IMG/VR virus record: IMGVR_UViG_3300042870_001427
Span: 100,147 to 164,146 of that record
Strand: one strand, 5' to 3'
Source: a virus
Lineage: Duplodnaviria > Heunggongvirae > Uroviricota > Caudoviricetes
DNA: 64,000 nucleotides
In this document: positions 1 through 55,323 of the stretch, in pieces
Position numbering within the stretch: position 1 is the stretch's first letter
Layout of the letters: each line of letters begins with the position of its first letter
Notes under the pieces: generated by a model
What the model saw: the letters and a program-made list of their open reading frames with translations, nothing else
Database searches by the model: none
What the model was told of the DNA's origin: nothing
Program-made: the position numbers and the translations under genes

Positions 1-3000
1 ACTCCATTACCCTTACTACTAATACGGCAAACGTTCAGTCAGCTGTAAACGTTGGTGCAAACGTTAATTTAACTACATCTAGTATTAATGTAGGTAATGC
101 TACAGTTAACTCTACTCTTAATTCTACTACCCTTACAACCAACACCGCCAATGTCCAATCGGATGTTAATGTAGGTGCAAACGTTAATTTAACTACTTCA
201 GGTATTAACGTAGGTAATGCAACAGTTAACACGTTTATTAATTCTGTATCAGTAAATTCAAACACTGTAAATGCTGCGAGTTTAATTAACGTTGGTGCTA
301 ACGTCAATCTATCTACATCTGATATAAACGTAGGTAATGCAACAGTTAACACGTTTATTAATTCCGTTACGGTTAATTCTAATACCATTAATGCAGCAAG
401 TATTGTAAATGTAGGTGCAAACGTAAATCTATCTACATCCAGCATTAATGTTGGTAATGCAACTGTAAACACGTTTATTAATTCAGTAGCAGTTAACTCT
501 AACACAGTTAATGCTGCAAGTGCTGTCAACGTTGGTGCAAACGTCAATCTAACTACTACTAGTATAAACATTGGCAACAGCACTGTTAACTCGTCTATAA
601 CTAGCGGGGAGATTCACACCGATGGTATATTAACAGTAGCTGGTAATACAACCATAAGTGCATCAGCTAATGTAGCAACTGCAGTCAATATCGGTTCTAA
701 TGTTAACTTAACCACCTCAAGTATTAACGTTGGCAATTCGACTGTTAATACCTTCATTAACTCCGATACAATTACTACTAATACTGCCAACGTTTCTAGT
801 GCAGTTAATGTTGGCGCAAATGTTAACTTAAGTACCACTAAAATAAATGTAGGTAATAGTACAGTTAATACTTCTATTAACTCTACCTCCATTGGCATAG
901 GATCAAACGTACAGATTAGTACGTCTAGTTTTAACGTTGGTAATAGTACTGTTAATACGGCTATTACAGCAACAAGCATTTCTTCGGGTACTATAAGTGT
1001 AGGTAATACTACTGTTAATGGATCTTTGGTTGCTAATAATACTAACATTATTGGTACAGCTAATATTTCTGGTCTTTTGACTGCTGCAAGTGCAACATTT
1101 AACGGCAATGTAGCGATCACCGGTAACCTAACTGTAACAGGTACTAGTGTAACCATTAATGCAACTAGCCTGGCCGTTCAAGATAACTTAATTTACTTAA
1201 ACTCAGGCAGCACCGTATCTAACCCCGATCTTGGATTTGCTGGTAACTATAACGATGGTACGTATCATCATGCTGGCTTCTTTAGAGATGCATCAGACGG
1301 GGTATGGAAGGTATTTGACAACTATCAACCAGAGCCAGATGTAAGTCCTTATATTGATACTGCAAACGCAACGTTTAGAATTGCAGATTTCCAATCTAAC
1401 AATACCACCACTGGTAACTTAACAGTAGTTGGTTCGGCTAATGCCTCGGCTGGATTTAATGCCGGTGCTAACGTCAATATCAGTACCAGTGTAATTAATG
1501 TAGGTAACTCAACAGTAAATACTTCGGTTAACTCTACTGCAGTATTTACCAGCGGTACAATTACAAGCGGTAATACAAATGTTACTGGTACGGCTAACGT
1601 CTCTGTTGGTATTAATGTTGGTGCAAATGTCAACTTAGGCACAACTTATATTAACGTAGGCAATTCAACCGTTAATACGACCATTACTAATATATCAGTA
1701 AGCACTAATACTGTTAGTGTAATTAGTGGGGTGAGTGTAGGGTCTAATGTAAGCGTTACTACCGGATCATTATTAATCGGTAATAGCACGGTTAATACAG
1801 TTGTAAATGCTACCTCTTTAAGCACCAATAATGCAACTGTTGATTACATTATTGCCAATACCGCCAACGTTGCCGGTATTGTTAACGTCGGTGCTAATGT
1901 AAATCTTACCACCAGTTCTATAAACGTTGGTAACAGTACTGTTAATACAGTTATTAATAATATTTCTGTTACTAGCAATACTGCTAATCTGGCAAGTGCC
2001 GTCAATGTAGGCGCTAATGTTAACTTAACAACCTCTAGTATCAGTGTTGGAAATTCTACAGTTAATACATTTATTAATTCTGTAGTAGTTAACTCCAATA
2101 CTGTTAATGCAGCAAGCGCCGTTAACGTAGGTGCTAATGTTGCATTGACTACATCAAGCGTTACTGTAGGTAATTCTACAGTCAATACTTTTATTAATTC
2201 AGTAGCGGTTAATTCTAATACAATAAATGCAGCAAGCGTTATTAATATTGGTGCAAACGTAAATCTTTCTACCAGTGCTATAAACGTTGGTAATAGTACA
2301 GTCAACACTGTAATTGATAGTAGTTCTGTTACCAGCAATACCGCCAATCTAACGTTTGCAGTCAATGTAGGTGCAAACGTTAGCCTGACTACATCAAGTG
2401 TAACTGTAGGTAATTCTACAGTCAATACTGTAGTTAATTCAAGCGTCATCACTACTACCTCGGCCAACTTGGCAACCGGTGTATTGTTTGTTGGTGCAAA
2501 CTTAACAGCTAATACTACTGCACTTAAGATAGGTAATACAACGGTCAATACTGTTATTACCAGTGAATCTATCACCACTAATGGAACACTATCGGCTTAT
2601 GGTAACGTTGTATTCTCAGCATACGCCAACGTTGGTACTCAGTTAAATGTCGGTAGTAATACAAATCTTACTGCCTCCCAGATTAATGTTGGTAATGCAA
2701 GCGGTAACTCAATTATTACGGCTACCTTAGTTTCATCAACTACTGCCAATTTAAGTTCTGAAGTTAATGTAGGTGCCAACGTTAACCTGAGCACCACCCA
2801 GATCAGTGTCGGTAATAGTACCGTTAATACTGTTATTACTAGTGCTGGGTTCACCACACCTAACGTTTCTATAACGTATGCAAACGTGGCCACCCAACTT
2901 AACGTTGGTGCTAACGTCAACCTGACTACAACCTACTTTAATGTTGGTAACAGTACAGTTAATACGTACATTACATCTTCAGGTATTATTACCAACACTG

Positions 3001-3503
3001 CCAACCTATCTAACATTCTGAATGTAGGTGCTAATGTTAACTTAGGTACATCTTACTTAAGTATCGGTAATAGTACAGTTAATACTTACCTGACATCGAC
3101 TGGTATTACTACCAATACTATTAATGCATACGCTATATTAAACGTAGGTGCAAACGTTAACATTGGTACCGGTTATATCAATATCGGTAACAGTACAGTT
3201 AATACCTACATTACCAGTTCTAGTATTTACACCACGGGTACTATTGAGACTACAGCTAATGCAATCTTCGGTGCACACGTCAATGTATCAACTCAGGTAA
3301 ACATTGGCTCTGTCATCGTAGGCAAAAATGAAATTAAGGTAGGTAACAGTACAGTCAATACAGTGATTACCTCCACCAGTATAAATACCAATGGAACGAT
3401 GACAGCGAATGTTATTTCTGTTGGTAATGTAGAACAGACACAAATCAACCTTCAAGTTGATCCTGCAGGAACAGCTTTCTTAAATGCTTTGATATACGGA
3501 TAA
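1..3503 (+). CDS. Tail fibre / receptor-binding protein, 5'-partial. Frame is open from position 3 and built from ~22-aa repeats (xNVGANVNLTTSxINVGNSTVNTxI).
   Basis: The frame of ORF 1026..3503 stays open back to the window start and translates into the same repeat unit. The DNA shows ~66-bp tandem periodicity. The gene sits in the gp12/wac position upstream of neck genes gp13-15. Confidence 0.6.
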   Translation, partial: SITLTTNTANVQSAVNVGANVNLTTSSINVGNATVNSTLNSTTLTTNTANVQSDVNVGANVNLTTSGINVGNATVNTFINSVSVNSNTVNAASLINVGANVNLSTSDINVGNATVNTFINSVTVNSNTINAASIVNVGANVNLSTSSINVGNATVNTFINSVAVNSNTVNAASAVNVGANVNLTTTSINIGNSTVNSSITSGEIHTDGILTVAGNTTISASANVATAVNIGSNVNLTTSSINVGNSTVNTFINSDTITTNTANVSSAVNVGANVNLSTTKINVGNSTVNTSINSTSIGIGSNVQISTSSFNVGNSTVNTAITATSISSGTISVGNTTVNGSLVANNTNIIGTANISGLLTAASATFNGNVAITGNLTVTGTSVTINATSLAVQDNLIYLNSGSTVSNPDLGFAGNYNDGTYHHAGFFRDASDGVWKVFDNYQPEPDVSPYIDTANATFRIADFQSNNTTTGNLTVVGSANASAGFNAGANVNISTSVINVGNSTVNTSVNSTAVFTSGTITSGNTNVTGTANVSVGINVGANVNLGTTYINVGNSTVNTTITNISVSTNTVSVISGVSVGSNVSVTTGSLLIGNSTVNTVVNATSLSTNNATVDYIIANTANVAGIVNVGANVNLTTSSINVGNSTVNTVINNISVTSNTANLASAVNVGANVNLTTSSISVGNSTVNTFINSVVVNSNTVNAASAVNVGANVALTTSSVTVGNSTVNTFINSVAVNSNTINAASVINIGANVNLSTSAINVGNSTVNTVIDSSSVTSNTANLTFAVNVGANVSLTTSSVTVGNSTVNTVVNSSVITTTSANLATGVLFVGANLTANTTALKIGNTTVNTVITSESITTNGTLSAYGNVVFSAYANVGTQLNVGSNTNLTASQINVGNASGNSIITATLVSSTTANLSSEVNVGANVNLSTTQISVGNSTVNTVITSAGFTTPNVSITYANVATQLNVGANVNLTTTYFNVGNSTVNTYITSSGIITNTANLSNILNVGANVNLGTSYLSIGNSTVNTYLTSTGITTNTINAYAILNVGANVNIGTGYINIGNSTVNTYITSSSIYTTGTIETTANAIFGAHVNVSTQVNIGSVIVGKNEIKVGNSTVNTVITSTSINTNGTMTANVISVGNVEQTQINLQVDPAGTAFLNALIYG

Positions 3504-3506
3504 CCC

Positions 3507-3827
3507 ATGGCCTCAACACAAACCAGTTTCGTTAACGATGCTATTGGCATTACAGCCAATACAATCTTTACAGCCAACAACACCACCGCCTTGGTAGGTG
3601 TTCAGATTGCTAATATTTCTAACAGTGCAATCACTATAGATCTTTACGTAACCAGAAGTGCTTCAAACTACTACCTGGTCAAAGGCGCAACGGTGGCAGT
3701 AGGTGGTGCGTTGGCCGCAATTGGTGGAGACGTTAAACACTTCCTGGTACTAAACGATGCATTAAAAGTCGTATCAAGCGCGGCTAACTCTGCCCACGCC
3801 CTGACGTCTGTAGCCGTAGGAGTCTAA
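3507..3827 (+). CDS. Small hypothetical protein between fibre genes; possible fibre assembly or adaptor protein.
   Basis: The ORF is tightly packed between two fibre genes, ending at 3827 with the next gene starting at 3828. Confidence 0.4.
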   Translation: MASTQTSFVNDAIGITANTIFTANNTTALVGVQIANISNSAITIDLYVTRSASNYYLVKGATVAVGGALAAIGGDVKHFLVLNDALKVVSSAANSAHALTSVAVGV

Positions 3828-52186: not shown

Positions 52187-52215
52187 TTGACTTTATTACG
52201 GAATATGTCTATAAT
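52187..52215 (+). promoter_or_regulatory. Early promoter cassette (TTGACT-N17-TATAAT).
   Basis: agTTGACTttattacggaatatgtcTATAATaagaCATCAACAGGAGAAAAC. Confidence 0.6.
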
Positions 52216-52239
52216 AAGACATCAACAGGAGAAAACGAT

Positions 52240-53346: not shown

Positions 53347-53633
53347 GATTTGGATTTAACGACTATTGTGATCAGGTCCAGCGCCTGATTGATGCCTGCA
53401 TCGCCGAATCTGTGGACTTGGTAGAATGCATGGATGAGGATAGCCCAGAAAATGAGGTGGAGAACCGCACCCGTGCCCAATACCGTAAGATGATTAGTGA
53501 TACCGCAGTTGATTGCTTTAAGCGTGCCCTGGATCCAGAAGACTATGATACGGTGACGATACCTGATACTCTCATCTTGGCCATCTTTGACCGGGTTAAG
53601 GTAGGGGTGGCCCTTCGTGCGTACGTTTTATAA
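53343..53633 (+). CDS. Hypothetical protein (96 aa).
   Basis: Coupled ORF. Confidence 0.45.
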   Translation: MRFGFNDYCDQVQRLIDACIAESVDLVECMDEDSPENEVENRTRAQYRKMISDTAVDCFKRALDPEDYDTVTIPDTLILAIFDRVKVGVALRAYVL

Positions 53634-53670
53634 TGCAAAACGTAACTAGTATTAGTTACTAAAATAACAG

Positions 53671-53699
53671 TTGACTTTATTACGGATATTGACTATAAT
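53671..53699 (+). promoter_or_regulatory. Early promoter cassette, preceded by the palindrome at 53642-53659.
   Basis: agTTGACTttattacggatattgacTATAATtacgtATG. The -10 box lies only 5 nt before ATG 53705. Confidence 0.55.
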
Positions 53700-53728
53700 T
53701 ACGTATGAACAATGAAAAGGAACAGACC

Positions 53729-54124
53729 ATGAACTACTTCTTCAACGACGTTAAGGTGACTGAGGCTGAGTATCACAAGTTGATCGAAGACGCCGAATCC
53801 CATCACCAGTTGTTGGCTGATGCCAAGGCCAAGCAAGTGGCCGCAGACAAGGAACTGGCCAAGGCAAAACCCAAGGCTAAGTCCCGTAAGGTGGCTAAGA
53901 TGCCTGCCCCGGTGGATCTCAACAAAGTGACCATCAAGGGCATGGCCGATAAGGTGGAGGCTCCTAAGAAAGGCTCCAAAACCGCCGTAGCTGCCGAATG
54001 CATGGTGAAGGTTGGTGTGGAGAACAAGGTCGGATGTGTTGAGGCTATCATGGTGGCCTTGGGTGTTACTAAGGGTAACGCAACCTGCTACTACTTCAAC
54101 GTGATGAAAAAAGGGTTGATTTAA
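53729..54124 (+). CDS. Basic hypothetical protein. The track start 53705 is probably too early; an internal Met at 53729 has a ribosome-binding site.
   Basis: AAAGGAACAGACC-ATG at 53729. The upstream ATG at 53705 sits inside the promoter's transcription-start zone. Confidence 0.4.
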   Translation: MNYFFNDVKVTEAEYHKLIEDAESHHQLLADAKAKQVAADKELAKAKPKAKSRKVAKMPAPVDLNKVTIKGMADKVEAPKKGSKTAVAAECMVKVGVENKVGCVEAIMVALGVTKGNATCYYFNVMKKGLI

Positions 54125-54145
54125 ATAGTAGGATTGGCCTATAAT
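54116..54145 (+). promoter_or_regulatory. Sigma70-like promoter (TTGATT-N18-TATAAT) driving a noncoding region.
   Basis: ggTTGATTtaaatagtaggattggccTATAATaagg. No ribosome-binding site or ORF follows. Confidence 0.5.
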
Positions 54146-54149
54146 AAGG

Positions 54150-54735
54150 CATAGGGTGAGGGGATCGGATCCCCAAGCCGCCAGTTGAAAAATTACTGGC
54201 AACTATAACCCCTGATTCCACGCAGGTTAAGGCGTGGAAGTCCTATCCCAAGGATCACCTAGGCTAGAACCTAGGGCCGATGAGCATCGCAAGCCCTACC
54301 ACGGGTGCCGATGGACGATGAATTTGGGAAGCAGTAGTTAGCAGTGGGAGGTGTAGGCCTAACCAAGTATAGAGATTTTAAGGAGAGGCGCTGCGAGGCG
54401 CGGGCTGCGAAGCTACTCTTAAACGACCTGTAGAACACTCAGGCGTCCTTAATCTGATCCTGTTACCATTTCTCGTTAAAATGGCGTTTGATTAGCGATA
54501 GAGATCCGGTGGCAGAAAACCGTTAGCGAGAGAAATACTCAGACTCTGATAGGCAGAATCCTAACTGCACACAGAATAAAATGGATGGACAGGGTAACCA
54601 CTCAAGTAGGGGCGAACATGGAAAAACGTAGCCTACAACTAACTTTTCGCCATAGGATGTAATGGAGTGCGGTTTGCTTCAACCTCTGGTACCGGGGGTT
54701 ATCTTGCGTGGGTTCGAATCCCACATGGCGAGCCA
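54150..54735 (+). ncRNA. GC-richer structured noncoding RNA region ending in a tRNA-like module.
   Basis: No ORF over ~590 nt. Multiple GC hairpins are present (GGGGATCgGATCCCC, GGCGCTGCGAGGCGCGGGCTGCGAAGC). It is downstream of the promoter and ends with the tRNA-like element. Confidence 0.45.
54647..54735 (+). tRNA. tRNA-like element: 7-bp acceptor helix, canonical T-arm, discriminator and encoded CCA. The D-arm is non-canonical, so a genuine tRNA is unproven.
   Basis: 5' strand TCGCCAT … T-arm GTGGG-TTCGAAT-CCCAC … 3' strand ATGGCGA-G-CCA. A possible anticodon-like hairpin is cCTC-tggtacc-GGGg. Confidence 0.4.
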
Positions 54736-54751
54736 ATACATAGGGATAGAC

Positions 54752-54907
54752 ATGCAGTACATCATTGAATGGATTCTCCGCCTTCTGGGCTGGTGTCTGA
54801 CGGCTGTGGCCCTGTTTGGCATGTCCATCCTCCTCATCGTGCTCGCCGGTATGACGTACGGTGGATACGTGGAATTCATGAAGTACATAAAAATAGTTAC
54901 TTCTTGA
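54752..54907 (+). CDS. Small hydrophobic peptide (~51 aa).
   Basis: MQYIIEWILRLLGWCLTAVALFGMSILLIVLAGM… sits 3' of the tRNA-like element. Its ribosome-binding site (AGGGA) is weak. Confidence 0.25.
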   Translation: MQYIIEWILRLLGWCLTAVALFGMSILLIVLAGMTYGGYVEFMKYIKIVTS

Positions 54908-54910
54908 CCA

Positions 54911-54939
54911 GTTGACTTTATTACGGGTATAGCCTATAA
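54911..54939 (+). promoter_or_regulatory. Early promoter cassette.
   Basis: agTTGACTttattacgggtatagccTATAATaaggCATCAACAGGAGAAAAg. Confidence 0.6.
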
Positions 54940-54965
54940 TAAGGCATCAACAGGAGAAAAGATAG

Positions 54966-55148
54966 ATGAAACCAACTGAACGCTACTTTGATAAGACCCT
55001 CAATGCCTGGGTCAACATCTACGAAGAACAAAAAGTCAAGCGCATTCCTTGGCAAAGGGGTGAGGCCTATCTGGCCATGAAGATGCGCATCCCTTCCGAT
55101 ACCGGCATGATCATGCACCAATTCACTCGTAAAAACGGAAAGTACTGA
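54966..55148 (+). CDS. Hypothetical protein (60 aa).
   Basis: Sits downstream of the cassette. Confidence 0.4.
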   Translation: MKPTERYFDKTLNAWVNIYEEQKVKRIPWQRGEAYLAMKMRIPSDTGMIMHQFTRKNGKY

Positions 55149-55149
55149 A

Positions 55150-55323
55150 ATGAATAACCCTATACCTCGTTCGAGTCTCTTTGTGACCCCGGAGTCATTG
55201 GCTGATCTAGATGAGATGATCCGTCAATTGCCTGCCACTGAACGTGCCACCGTATACCAATACGTCATGTTTGCCTTTAACCTTGCCCATAAACTCATTG
55301 AAGAAAGCAAAGAAAATGCCTAA
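55150..55323 (+). CDS. Small hypothetical protein (57 aa).
   Basis: Coupled (TGAAATGA); below the track cut-off. Confidence 0.3.
   Translation: MNNPIPRSSLFVTPESLADLDEMIRQLPATERATVYQYVMFAFNLAHKLIEESKENA

What the first reader, a model, noticed from the sequence alone, without database searches (positions are those of the whole stretch)
54116..54735. Promoter-driven ~600-nt GC-richer noncoding region ending in a tRNA-like module with encoded CCA
No ORF of 60 aa or more is present. Composition is visibly more GC-rich than the flanks, with many hairpins. Its own TTGATT-N18-TATAAT promoter has no ribosome-binding site. The 3' end carries a near-perfect tRNA T-arm (GTGGG-TTCGAAT-CCCAC), a 7-bp acceptor helix (TCGCCAT/ATGGCGA), discriminator G and CCA. 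No canonical D-arm could be folded by eye. Candidates are a divergent class-II tRNA, a tRNA-like stable RNA (as T4 species 1/2 RNAs) or a larger tRNA-like-structure-capped ncRNA.
Basis: seen in the sequence. Interest (0 to 1): 0.65.

Follow-up and report, generated by a model that had tools for sequence, protein, structure and literature searches.

The report
Phage operon of three small RNAs
The 620-base gene-free stretch is not one long RNA but a promoter-driven row of three separate, conserved, folded small RNA genes of unknown function, normally found among the tRNA genes of lake phages; the last is a tRNA look-alike with no anticodon.

Summary
The single ~600-nt RNA reading does not hold. 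The interval is a mosaic of independently conserved modules.

- **E1** (54211-54359) occurs in 57 other loci, including the cultured Bordetella phage PHB04.
- **E2** (54456-54640) occurs in more than 119 viral contigs and has a covariation-supported pseudoknot.
- **T** (54647-54735) has 13 distinct relatives.

In related freshwater phages these modules sit in a different order, usually between tRNA genes. A 95-99% identical relative (L227) lacks E1 and T cleanly but keeps E2.

All three folds are supported by compensatory changes (0 of 500 shuffles reach the observed values). None reaches threshold in Rfam 15 or ARAGORN.

T has an acceptor stem and T-arm but no D-arm and no conserved anticodon loop. 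Its relatives carry the alanine identity set (G3·U70, A73, CCA), as in the tRNA-like domain of tmRNA. The window copy instead has U1-A72, G3-C70 and G73.

Function is unknown. The closest analogues are T4 RNAC/RNAD, GOLLD/ROOL and the TLD-only tmRNA of phage DS6A.

The parts
54116..54145 (+). Sigma-70-type promoter (TTGATT, 18-nt spacer, TATAAT). It overlaps the last codons and stop of the upstream ORF 53705-54124.
   Evidence: 10 of 12 consensus positions. The extended -10 motif GCCTATAATAAGGCAT occurs 3 times in the window against 0.08 expected. It is conserved in the relative L227.
54160..54200 (+). Leader E0: two hairpins, GGGGATCGGATCCCC (54160-54174) and GCCAGTTGAAAAATTACTGGC (54180-54200).
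   Evidence: MFE z-score -2.1. Conserved at 85-95% in L227, L015, L037, L038, L017, L204, L013 and L253. Role not established.
54211..54359 (+). E1, a structured RNA gene of about 150 nt. It comprises a 5' hairpin, a multi-helix junction, a hairpin with a palindromic loop, and a terminal hairpin.
   Evidence: nhmmer score 152 bits. 57 other loci hold it. On alignment A4, 98.9% of cells are paired, 21 of 41 pairs show changes on both sides, and 0 of 500 shuffles reach this. It is absent as a clean indel from L227.
54241..54258 (+). E1 near-invariant 18-mer TCCTATCCCAAGGATCAC.
   Evidence: Exact in 52 viral contigs. It is present in every complete locus found by an independent pattern elsewhere in E1; the one exception, L108, is cut off by the locus end. 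The only variant seen is TCCTTTCCC, in L128 and L130.
54331..54342 (+). E1 hairpin GC-AGTAGTTA-GC, whose loop carries a self-complementary core (AGTT within TAGTTA).
   Evidence: The loop tetramer is self-complementary in 57 of 57 copies across 5 variants (AGTT, TGTA, CGCG, CGTG, TGCA). The chance rate per tetramer is 0.14. Positions 1 and 4 of the tetramer covary, yet they are too close to pair within one molecule.
54360..54455 (+). Spacer between E1 and E2. No homologue was found other than L227.
   Evidence: 98.8% identical to L227 over 54376-54460; nothing else matched.
54456..54640 (+). E2, a pseudoknotted structured RNA gene of about 185 nt.
   Evidence: nhmmer score 175 bits. On alignment A6 (67 sequences), 95.8% of cells are paired, 17 pairs show changes on both sides, and 0 of 500 shuffles reach this.
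54557..54586 (+). E2 pseudoknot. The hairpin loop AATCCTAA (54557-54564; ATCC at 54558-54561) pairs with GGAT at 54583-54586, just before the conserved GGAC.
   Evidence: Helix 8: 5 of 6 pairs show changes on both sides, for example AUCUC/GAGAU, AUCCCU/AGGGAU, AUCUUU/AAAGAU and AUUCCU/AGGAAU.
54647..54735 (+). T, an 89-nt tRNA-like RNA.

- Acceptor: 54647-54653 with 54725-54731.
- Conserved 10-nt linker.
- Hairpin A: 54664-54680.
- Hairpin B: 54681-54700.
- Linker.
- T-arm: 54708-54724.
- G73: 54732.
- CCA: 54733-54735.
   Evidence: On alignment A7, 99.7% of cells are paired, 7 pairs show changes on both sides, and 0 of 500 shuffles reach this. It is absent as a clean indel from L227. ARAGORN and Rfam do not call it.
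54752..54907 (+). Downstream small ORF of 51 aa, hydrophobic, with AGGGA 6 nt upstream of the ATG. It is probably on the same transcript, because no + strand terminator intervenes.
   Evidence: A homologous ORF follows E2 directly in L227. No Pfam match.

Best explanation
The interval is a polycistronic small-RNA operon of a T4-like freshwater myophage. It is the non-tRNA content of a phage tRNA island, in a phage that has no canonical tRNA.

One early-type sigma-70 promoter (54116-54145) drives, in order:
- a two-hairpin leader;
- E1 (54211-54359);
- a spacer;
- E2 (54456-54640);
- T (54647-54735);
- and probably the small ORF at 54752.

Shown here:
- E1, E2 and T are three separate, independently inherited RNA gene cassettes.
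- Each has a fold supported by covariation.
- None is covered by Rfam 15.

Inferred:
- The primary transcript is cut into separate stable RNAs by the host tRNA-processing machinery. RNase P would cut at the 5' end of T, and of the flanking tRNAs in relatives. Trailer processing would act after CCA ends. This is how T4 RNAC/RNAD are made.
- T is an anticodon-less tRNA mimic that presents only an acceptor/T-arm 'top half'. In most relatives it carries the alanine identity set, so it should be alanylated like the tRNA-like domain of tmRNA. The window copy has lost G3·U70. Its most likely action is therefore as an uncharged competitor or decoy for proteins that read the tRNA top half: SmpB, EF-Tu, RNase P, CCA-adding enzyme, or acceptor-end-directed tRNA toxins.
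- E1 forms homodimers through a palindromic kissing loop.
- The target of E2 is unknown.

My confidence is about 0.85 for the organisation (three separate RNA genes), about 0.5 for processing into separate stable RNAs, and 0.25 or less for any specific molecular function.
For: Modularity:
- Local BLAST and nhmmer find E1, E2 and T separately, and in other orders. In L009 the order is tRNA-Glu, E2, tRNA-Asp, T, E1.
- T occurs in 12-15 kb loci that hold no E1 or E2.
- L227 is 95-99% identical to the window in the flanks. It keeps the promoter, leader, spacer and E2 but lacks E1 (172 nt) and T (about 100 nt).

Reality of the RNAs:
- E1: 98.9% of cells paired, 21 pairs with compensatory changes.
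- E2: 95.8% paired, 17 pairs with compensatory changes, including the pseudoknot.
- T: 99.7% paired, 7 pairs with compensatory changes.
- In all three cases 0 of 500 shuffles reach the observed values, and the slid-partner controls pair in only 22-50% of cells.

tRNA-island context:
- Of 102 distinct E2 contexts, 75 have a tRNA within 40 nt downstream (58 of them tRNA-Asp) and 67 have one within 40 nt upstream.
- T sits in a tRNA-sized slot between tRNA-Ala and tRNA-Pro in L275.
- The same arrays hold permuted tmRNAs and GOLLD.

Promoter. There is no + strand terminator in 53600-55300.

Identity of T:
- G3·U70 is kept in 11 of 12 aligned distinct sequences, while the adjacent pair 4-69 covaries through A-U, U-A and C-G.
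- A73 is present in 9 of 13 and an encoded CCA in 12 of 13.
- Among 1307 distinct tRNAs from the same loci, G3·U70 is found in 43 of 43 tRNA-Ala and in 18 of 1264 others.

Precedent: Hudson et al. 2014 (PMC4131195) cite Mao et al. 2009 for a TLD-like RNA that strongly inhibits tmRNA, whether or not it can be charged with alanine, perhaps by titrating SmpB.

E1 dimer: the loop core is self-complementary in 57 of 57 copies across 5 variants.
Against: - No expression or processing data exist; transcription, RNA ends and stability are all inferred.
- MFE z-scores for T and for 54360-54736 are not significant.
- The window copy of T lacks the G3·U70 and A73 of its family. It is the lowest-scoring member, at 82 bits against 88-95 for complete copies, so it could be decaying. 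Against decay, its 1-72 pair changed by a compensatory G-C to U-A switch.
- Several phages that carry T also encode a complete tmRNA (L009, L016, L040). That fits poorly with T being an inhibitor of trans-translation.
- Hairpin A of T, the P2-type helix of E1 and several E2 helices are invariant, so they are untested by covariation.
- The 5' pseudoknot of E1 rests on a single compensatory event, in L008/L022.
- The relatedness of the sequences inflates the shuffle statistics.
Confidence: 0.7

Rival explanations
1. The region encodes a single ~600-nt non-coding RNA whose 3' end is capped by a tRNA-like structure.
For: There is one promoter and no + strand terminator between 54116 and 54907. The primary transcript probably does span everything. 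GOLLD RNAs in the same phage clade can contain tRNAs internally (PMC12286853).
Against: - The three conserved parts occur independently, in other orders, and separated by tRNA genes.
- L227 lacks E1 and T but keeps E2.
- The stretches between modules are not conserved outside L227.
- No helix linking modules is supported. The 10-bp E2-T pairing seen in the window has two mismatches in L009.
Confidence: 0.08
2. T is a functional but divergent decoding tRNA, either class II or lacking a D-arm.
For: - It has a 7-bp acceptor, a canonical T-arm, CCA, and a tRNA-sized slot in arrays.
- The Rfam tRNA model aligns end to end on relatives at 21.9 bits.
- One arrangement gives a 5-bp stem with a 7-nt loop (GGAGU-GYGGUUU-GCUUC).
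Against: - ARAGORN does not call it in any locus.
- Its score is below the 29-bit tRNA gathering score.
- There is no D-stem.
- The candidate 7-nt loop has C or U at position 33 and U at position 37.
- The loop of hairpin B varies from 4 to 7 nt with no conserved triplet.
Confidence: 0.05
3. E2 and T together form a tmRNA-like ribosome-rescue RNA. T would supply the tRNA-like domain, and E2 the pseudoknotted, mRNA-like part.
For: - A weak Rfam tmRNA hit (16.9 bits, E = 1e-4 in the 751-nt search) spans the 3' end of E2 through the T-arm, with a 10-bp P2-like pairing in the window.
- The T family carries G3·U70, A73 and CCA.
- E2 has an H-type pseudoknot followed by a GGAUGGAC motif that recalls the tmRNA GGAUUCGAC.
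Against: - The score is far below the 47-bit tmRNA gathering score, and ARAGORN tmRNA mode is silent.
- T contains both acceptor strands itself.
- E2 is about ten times commoner than T, and T occurs without E2.
- No conserved tag reading frame is present: the frames differ between the window and the consensus, and the region covaries as a hairpin.
- The P2-like pairing is not maintained in L009.
- The window copy of T lacks G3·U70.
Confidence: 0.05
4. The region is an eroding remnant of a tRNA island. In this phage the RNAs are non-functional relics.
For: - The window and L227 have no tRNA at all, whereas relatives carry 6-29.
- The window copies of E1, E2 and T score at the low end of their families.
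- T has lost G3·U70 and A73.
- E1 and T are dispensable in L227.
Against: - All invariant positions of E1 and E2 are retained in the window.
- The 1-72 pair of T changed by compensation.
- A strong, conserved promoter sits directly upstream.
- E2 differs between the window and L227 mainly by a swapped but still paired variable hairpin.
Confidence: 0.1

Closest known systems
T4 RNAC (species 1) and RNAD (species 2) stable RNAs
   Same: - They are small non-tRNA RNAs (139 and 119 nt) encoded inside the tRNA cluster of a T4-type myovirus.
- RNAC has a T-arm near its 3' end.
- Their function is still unknown (PMC3014915 and PMC9697503).
   Different: There is no detectable sequence similarity to E1, E2 or T apart from the 13-nt T-loop match. 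The sizes and folds differ. The window has no tRNAs around the RNAs.
tmRNA tRNA-like domain, and the TLD-only tmRNA of mycobacteriophage DS6A
   Same: - Acceptor stem plus T-arm, with no anticodon arm.
- The T family carries G3·U70, A73 and CCA.
- There is a phage-encoded precedent in DS6A, and a reported inhibitory effect of such RNAs on trans-translation (PMC4131195).
   Different: - T scores only 12.6-16.9 bits on the Rfam tmRNA model, against a gathering score of 47. ARAGORN does not call it.
- T has two extra hairpins where tmRNA has a D-loop analogue and P2.
- The window copy has G3-C70, U1-A72 and G73.
- The DS6A sequence could not be located for direct comparison.
GOLLD and ROOL RNAs
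   Same: - They are phage and prophage structured RNAs of unknown function, found near tRNA islands.
- GOLLD occurs in the same contigs as E1, E2 and T.
- They self-assemble into homo-oligomers (PMC12286853), which parallels the palindromic loop of E1.
   Different: - GOLLD and ROOL are 580-800 nt or more and form 8- to 14-mer cages. E1 and E2 are 150-190 nt.
- There is no Rfam hit to either family in the window.
- Oligomerisation of E1 is only inferred.
Canonical tRNA-Ala
   Same: G3·U70 with A73 and CCA occurs in T relatives, exactly as in 43 of 43 tRNA-Ala from the same phage arrays. T lies next to tRNA-Ala(UGC) in L275.
   Different: T has no D-arm and no UGC/GGC anticodon loop, and falls below tRNA model thresholds. 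The window copy has lost the G·U pair.

Membership tests
tRNA (Rfam RF00005 / ARAGORN) | A 7-bp acceptor stem, a 5-bp T-stem with a 7-nt T-loop (UUCRANY), a discriminator base and a CCA end. | tested here: met
   Window 54647-54653 with 54725-54731; T-arm 54708-54724; G73 and CCA. The acceptor and T-stems covary in the family.
tRNA (Rfam RF00005 / ARAGORN) | A D-arm (3-4 bp stem) and an anticodon arm (5-bp stem, 7-nt loop with U33 and a purine at 37). | tested here: not met
   No D-stem can be formed. The only 7-nt loop (GYGGUUU) has C or U at position 33 and U at position 37. The loop of hairpin B varies from 4 to 7 nt and is not conserved.
tRNA (Rfam RF00005 / ARAGORN) | The score reaches the model threshold. 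| tested here: not met
   ARAGORN finds 0 genes in the window. Rfam gives no hit at gathering score. Relatives in L297 and L299 score 21.9 bits against a 29-bit gathering score.
tmRNA (RF00023 and clan; ARAGORN tmRNA mode) | Alanine acceptor identity: G3·U70, A73 and CCA. | tested here: not met
   The window copy has G3-C70, U1-A72 and G73. The family otherwise meets the feature: G3·U70 in 11 of 12, A73 in 9 of 13, CCA in 12 of 13.
tmRNA (RF00023 and clan; ARAGORN tmRNA mode) | An mRNA-like domain with a resume codon, a tag ORF and flanking pseudoknots, joined to the TLD by helix P2. | tested here: not met
   T ends in a capped 8-bp hairpin. E2 has one pseudoknot but no conserved reading frame, and it is inherited independently of T.
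tmRNA (RF00023 and clan; ARAGORN tmRNA mode) | The score reaches the model threshold. | tested here: not met
   16.9 bits against a 47-bit gathering score. ARAGORN finds none. True permuted tmRNAs in related loci score 104-143 bits.
TLD-only tmRNA-like RNA (DS6A type) | Little more than the acceptor/T-arm domain of tmRNA; binds SmpB and inhibits trans-translation. | not testable with these tools
   T has a comparable architecture. Binding and inhibition need experiments. The DS6A element was not found in the first 50 kb with a T-loop pattern.
T4 RNAC/RNAD | Sequence homology to T4 rnaC or rnaD. | tested here: not met
   nhmmer with the E1, E2 and T profiles against the T4 region, run with --max and E up to 100, matched only the 13-nt T-loop.
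T4 RNAC/RNAD | Stable RNAs co-transcribed with phage tRNAs and processed out of the same precursor. | not testable with these tools
   The genomic position between tRNAs is met for E2, E1 and T in relatives. Processing and stability need RNA data.
GOLLD (RF02032) / ROOL | A match to the family covariance model. | tested here: not met
   There is no hit in the window at gathering score, nor at E up to 10 in 54050-54800. GOLLD is detected elsewhere in L009, L036 and L293.
Any Rfam 15 family (for E1 and E2) | A match to any of the 4227 covariance models. | tested here: not met
   window; PHB04; ten related loci. Only tRNA, tmRNA and GOLLD are found, and none overlaps E1 or E2.

The most novel reading that the evidence does not exclude
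T may represent a previously unrecognised class of phage-encoded, anticodon-less tRNA-Ala mimics, in effect free-standing tmRNA-type tRNA-like domains. Such RNAs would be alanylated and used off the normal decoding pathway. They might block or hijack SmpB-dependent ribosome rescue, or sponge toxins directed at the tRNA acceptor end. The window copy would be an identity-switched variant with the U1-A72/G73 signature that tRNA-Asn carries in these arrays. E1 and E2 would be two new self-assembling or pseudoknotted phage RNAs, expanding the GOLLD/ROOL-type 'tRNA-island RNA' repertoire. E1 is testable now in the cultured Bordetella phage PHB04.
Probability: 0.3. Interest if true: 0.8.

Novelty: new variant of a known kind. 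Interest (0 to 1): 0.64.

Why it matters
Phage tRNA islands are known to hide large RNAs of unknown function. T4 RNAC/RNAD have been unexplained for about 50 years, and GOLLD and ROOL were recently shown to form RNA cages.

This window adds three further families with strong covariation that are not curated in Rfam 15. One of them, E2, is in well over a hundred freshwater phage contigs. Another, E1, is in a cultured Bordetella phage, where it can be deleted and probed.

The tRNA-like family keeps the alanine identity pair but has no anticodon. That makes a concrete biochemical prediction: it should be charged by AlaRS and bound by SmpB or EF-Tu. If so, phages would be manipulating translation quality control or tRNA-directed defence.

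The window phage is useful because it carries these RNAs without any tRNA. Their value to the phage is therefore separable from codon supply.

Tried and rejected
- ARAGORN (tRNA and tmRNA modes) on the window found nothing.
- Rfam at gathering thresholds on the window found nothing. The permissive mode on 54050-54800 gave only a sub-threshold tmRNA hit and two chance hits.
- megablast of 48-60 kb against GenBank phages found no match.
- A degenerate E1 pattern (GACG...TTGGGAAGC) was too unspecific: 120 or more mostly chance loci. Only L128 and L130 proved real.
- The E1 18-mer in 185,579 reference bacterial and archaeal genomes gave 17 hits. None has E1-like flanking sequence and most lie in apparent coding sequence, so no true E1 was found.
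- By-eye resemblances of E1 and E2 to SRP RNA (GGAAGCAG, CAGGUCA), to the RNase P P4/ACAGAA motif, to 5S loop E, and of the E1 GGAUCAC to the 16S 3' end were considered. They were dropped because no covariance model supports them and the architectures differ.
- Trans pairing of the E1 GUCCUAUCCC with the E2 GGGAUGGAC was rejected. The E2 strand covaries with its own hairpin loop instead, and E1 and E2 co-occur in only 6 loci.
- A tag ORF in E2 was rejected because it is not conserved.
- Homology to T4 rnaC/rnaD: none.
- The DS6A TLD-only element was not located.
- Pfam on the flanking small proteins, and on the 75-aa protein that precedes E1 in many loci, gave no family.
Full report
**1. Observation**

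- A sigma-70-type promoter (TTGATT, N18, TATAAT) lies at 54116-54145.
- Its extended -10 region GCCTATAATAAGGCAT recurs at 54932 and, with one mismatch, at 52207. That is three matches against 0.08 expected, and no shuffle reached three. It is therefore one of a set of repeated phage promoters.
- No ORF of 60 aa or more lies wholly inside the interval.
- GC is only mildly raised, 0.54 at 54150-54449 against 0.44-0.50 nearby.
- The 3' module is exactly as described: TCGCCAT 54647-54653 pairs with ATGGCGA 54725-54731; the T-arm is 54708-54724; G is at 54732 and CCA at 54733-54735.
- Folding energies alone are not unusual, with z-scores of -0.93 and -0.32.

**2. Detectors**

- ARAGORN finds no tRNA or tmRNA anywhere in the 64-kb window.
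- Rfam 15 at gathering thresholds finds nothing in the window.
- With permissive settings on 54050-54800, the only notable hit is tmRNA at 16.9 bits against a 47-bit gathering score. It covers the T-arm and a P2-like pairing.

**3. The region is a mosaic, not one RNA**

blastn against 50,697 GenBank phages matched only 93 nt (54240-54332), in an unannotated gap of Bordetella phage PHB04. That gap lies beside three tRNAs and a permuted tmRNA.

An 18-mer from that core is exact in 52 IMG/VR contigs. An independent pattern from another part of the element recovers the same set. Local BLAST and nhmmer then showed that two further parts of the window interval have their own homologues elsewhere. 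I call the parts:
- E1, 54211-54359;
- E2, 54456-54640;
- T, 54647-54735.

A short two-hairpin leader, E0 (54160-54200), is also conserved in several loci.

The modules occur in different orders and are usually separated by tRNA genes. In L009 the order is tRNA-Glu, E2, tRNA-Asp, T, E1. T occurs in 12-15 kb loci with neither E1 nor E2, and E1 and E2 share a locus in only 6 cases.

The clearest evidence is L227. It is 95-99% identical to the window in the promoter, leader, spacer and E2. It lacks E1 (172 nt) and T (about 100 nt) as clean indels, and E2 runs straight into the homologue of the small ORF at 54752.

**4. Each module is a real structured RNA**

- **E1** (27 distinct sequences): 98.9% of cells are paired, and 21 of 41 pairs show changes on both sides. 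No shuffle of 500 reaches this, and slid-partner controls pair in 22-42% of cells.
- **E2** (67 sequences): 95.8% of cells are paired and 17 pairs are compensatory, again with 0 of 500 shuffles. The set includes a pseudoknot between the loop of the GGCAG/CUGC hairpin and the strand just before the conserved GGAC. Five of its six pairs covary, for example AUCUC/GAGAU, AUCCCU/AGGGAU, AUCUUU/AAAGAU and AUUCCU/AGGAAU.
- **T** (12 distinct sequences after a metagenome scan): 99.7% of cells are paired. Seven pairs are compensatory, in the acceptor stem, hairpin B and the T-stem, with 0 of 500 shuffles.

Several helices are invariant and therefore untested: hairpin A of T, the UCCCAA/UUGGGA helix of E1, and several in E2.

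**5. Context and distribution**

The window is a T4-like myovirus, with a terminase, a tail sheath, a T4-type portal and a clamp loader. All its genes are on the + strand.

Relatives that carry E1, E2 or T are freshwater IMG/VR contigs, many of them 100-364 kb. They hold arrays of up to 29 tRNAs, permuted (beta-type) tmRNAs and GOLLD RNA.

Of 102 distinct E2 contexts, 75 have a tRNA within 40 nt downstream (58 of them tRNA-Asp) and 67 have one within 40 nt upstream (34 Tyr, 19 Glu). E1 is more often outside arrays. T occupies a tRNA-sized slot between tRNA-Ala(UGC) and tRNA-Pro in L275.

The E1 18-mer gave only matches without E1 flanks in 185,579 reference prokaryotic genomes. Apart from E1 in PHB04, none of the three modules is in GenBank phage genomes at blastn sensitivity. 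The window and L227 carry these RNAs without a single canonical tRNA.

**6. What T is**

T has a 7-bp acceptor, a conserved 10-nt linker and an invariant 5-bp/7-nt hairpin A. It then has an 8-bp hairpin B whose loop is unconserved at 4-7 nt, a 7-nt linker, a canonical T-arm, a discriminator and CCA. It has no D-arm and no anticodon, so it is not a decoding tRNA.

In 11 of 12 aligned distinct sequences the third acceptor pair is G·U, while the neighbouring 4-69 pair covaries through A-U, U-A and C-G. A73 is present in 9 of 13 and CCA is encoded in 12 of 13.

As an internal control I examined 1307 distinct ARAGORN tRNAs from the same loci. G3·U70 occurs in 43 of 43 tRNA-Ala, all with A73, and in 18 of 1264 others.

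By established knowledge, G3·U70 is the major AlaRS determinant and acts independently of the anticodon. The family is therefore predicted to be alanylated, like the tRNA-like domain of tmRNA.

The window copy is the exception, with U1-A72 (a compensatory switch), G3-C70 and G73. In these arrays U1-A72 plus G73 is the signature of 41 of 41 tRNA-Asn. AsnRS needs the anticodon, however, so charging is doubtful.

Hudson et al. [quoted passage not shown] They add that a similar molecule, chargeable or not, strongly inhibits tmRNA, perhaps by titrating SmpB (PMC4131195). That is the best precedent for a mechanism.

Against it, several phages that carry T also encode a full tmRNA. T also fails the tmRNA and tRNA model thresholds.

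**7. What E1 and E2 are**

Neither matches any Rfam family.

E1 has a hairpin (GC, then AG-UNGYNA, then GC) whose loop core is self-complementary in 57 of 57 copies. Five variants occur (AGUU, UGUA, CGCG, CGUG, UGCA), and the chance rate per tetramer is 0.14. The covarying positions are too close to pair within one molecule. I infer an intermolecular kissing-loop homodimer, as in the HIV-1 dimerisation site. GOLLD and ROOL from the same type of locus also self-assemble (PMC12286853).

A 5' CCUG to loop CAGG pseudoknot in E1 has one compensatory event.

The 3' domain of E2 (GGACAGAGUAAC plus a hairpin with GGGC...GUAGC) recurs in another, unidentified RNA in L178, L183, L210 and L233. I could not assign a function to E1 or E2.

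**8. Comparison with the known**

The nearest analogues in kind are T4 RNAC and RNAD. These are stable RNAs made from the T4 tRNA cluster whose roles remain unknown. There is no sequence homology to them.

GOLLD and ROOL share the tRNA-island habitat and unknown function, but are much larger and do not match. T resembles a free-standing tmRNA TLD, or a tRNA-Ala 'top half'.

I therefore classify the finding as new RNA families within a known kind: phage tRNA-island non-coding RNAs. T is a new variant of the tRNA-like/TLD-only theme. The Fremin et al. 2023 catalogue of 8,495 unnamed IMG/VR candidate RNAs (PMC10690425) may already contain E1 or E2. I could not check this.

**9. Verdict**

The most likely mechanism is a single promoter-driven precursor that is cut by tRNA-processing enzymes into E1, E2 and T. 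This step is inferred. T would then act as a tRNA top-half mimic or decoy, and E1 as a dimer; both are inferred with low confidence. Nothing here has expression data behind it.

Noticed in passing
window 54752-54907: A small hydrophobic ORF of 51 aa (MQYIIEWILRLLGWCLTAVALFGMSILLIVLAGMTYGGYVEFMKYIKIVTS) follows the RNA cluster with no terminator in between. A homologue follows E2 directly in L227. It has no Pfam family.
   Followed up: partly
window 52207-52222, 53671-53699, 54116-54152, 54912-54947: A repeated strong promoter family with an extended conserved -10 region (GCCTATAATAAGGCAT) punctuates a run of very small + strand ORFs. This is typical of an early-gene region.
   Followed up: partly
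window 1-64000 and L227: The window encodes T4-like structural and replication genes but no canonical tRNA or tmRNA. Its close relative L227 also has none in 11.3 kb. More distant relatives with the same RNAs carry 6-29 tRNAs.
   Followed up: partly
L001 (Bordetella phage PHB04, NC_047861) 911-3616: The RefSeq record annotates no RNA genes in this stretch. It nevertheless holds tRNA-Met, tRNA-Asn, tRNA-Pro, a permuted tmRNA (tag ANDDYIRAAA) and E1. The 37-aa CDS HOS14_gp047 inside the gap looks doubtful. A weak hit resembling tRNA-Sec (21.7 bits) at 2575-2659 was not resolved.
   Followed up: partly
L210 7403-7471, L233 2161-2222, L183 6514-6577, L178 1604-1668: Another, unidentified RNA shares only the 3' domain of E2 (AUGGACRGRGUAAC, a small hairpin, then a hairpin with GGGC...GUAGC). 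This suggests a reusable structural module.
   Followed up: no
L009 10928-11336, L036 1-452, L293 1791-1906: GOLLD RNA, with an embedded tRNA, lies in the same tRNA islands as E1, E2 and T.
   Followed up: no
E2 loci generally (e.g. L009 8526-8600, L221, L203): E2 is followed by tRNA-Asp(GUC) in 58 of 102 distinct contexts and preceded by tRNA-Tyr or tRNA-Glu in 53. That tRNA-Asp has an unusual T-arm (GGGGAUCGUUACCCC). E1 can occupy the same Tyr-to-Asp slot, as in L019 and L036.
   Followed up: partly
L002 3993-4220 and 4413-4871: In one phage subgroup E1 lies directly after a conserved 75-aa ORF (ending ...VVYRLGHSHQSY) with no Pfam family. There it is followed by an ORF whose sequence looks like an HNH/NUMOD-type homing endonuclease, judged by eye and not tested.
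   Followed up: partly
window 54643-54745 vs L227: CATAGG is repeated at both edges of the T insertion (54651-54656 and 54739-54744). This could reflect gain or loss of the cassette by microhomology, although the junction in L227 is not an exact repeat-mediated deletion.
   Followed up: no
window 54570-54580: The window E2 lacks about 6-8 nt (GACnnU) of the linker between the CUGCACACAGA helix and GAAUAAA. These bases are present in L227 and nearly all other members. The flanking helices are preserved.
   Followed up: no
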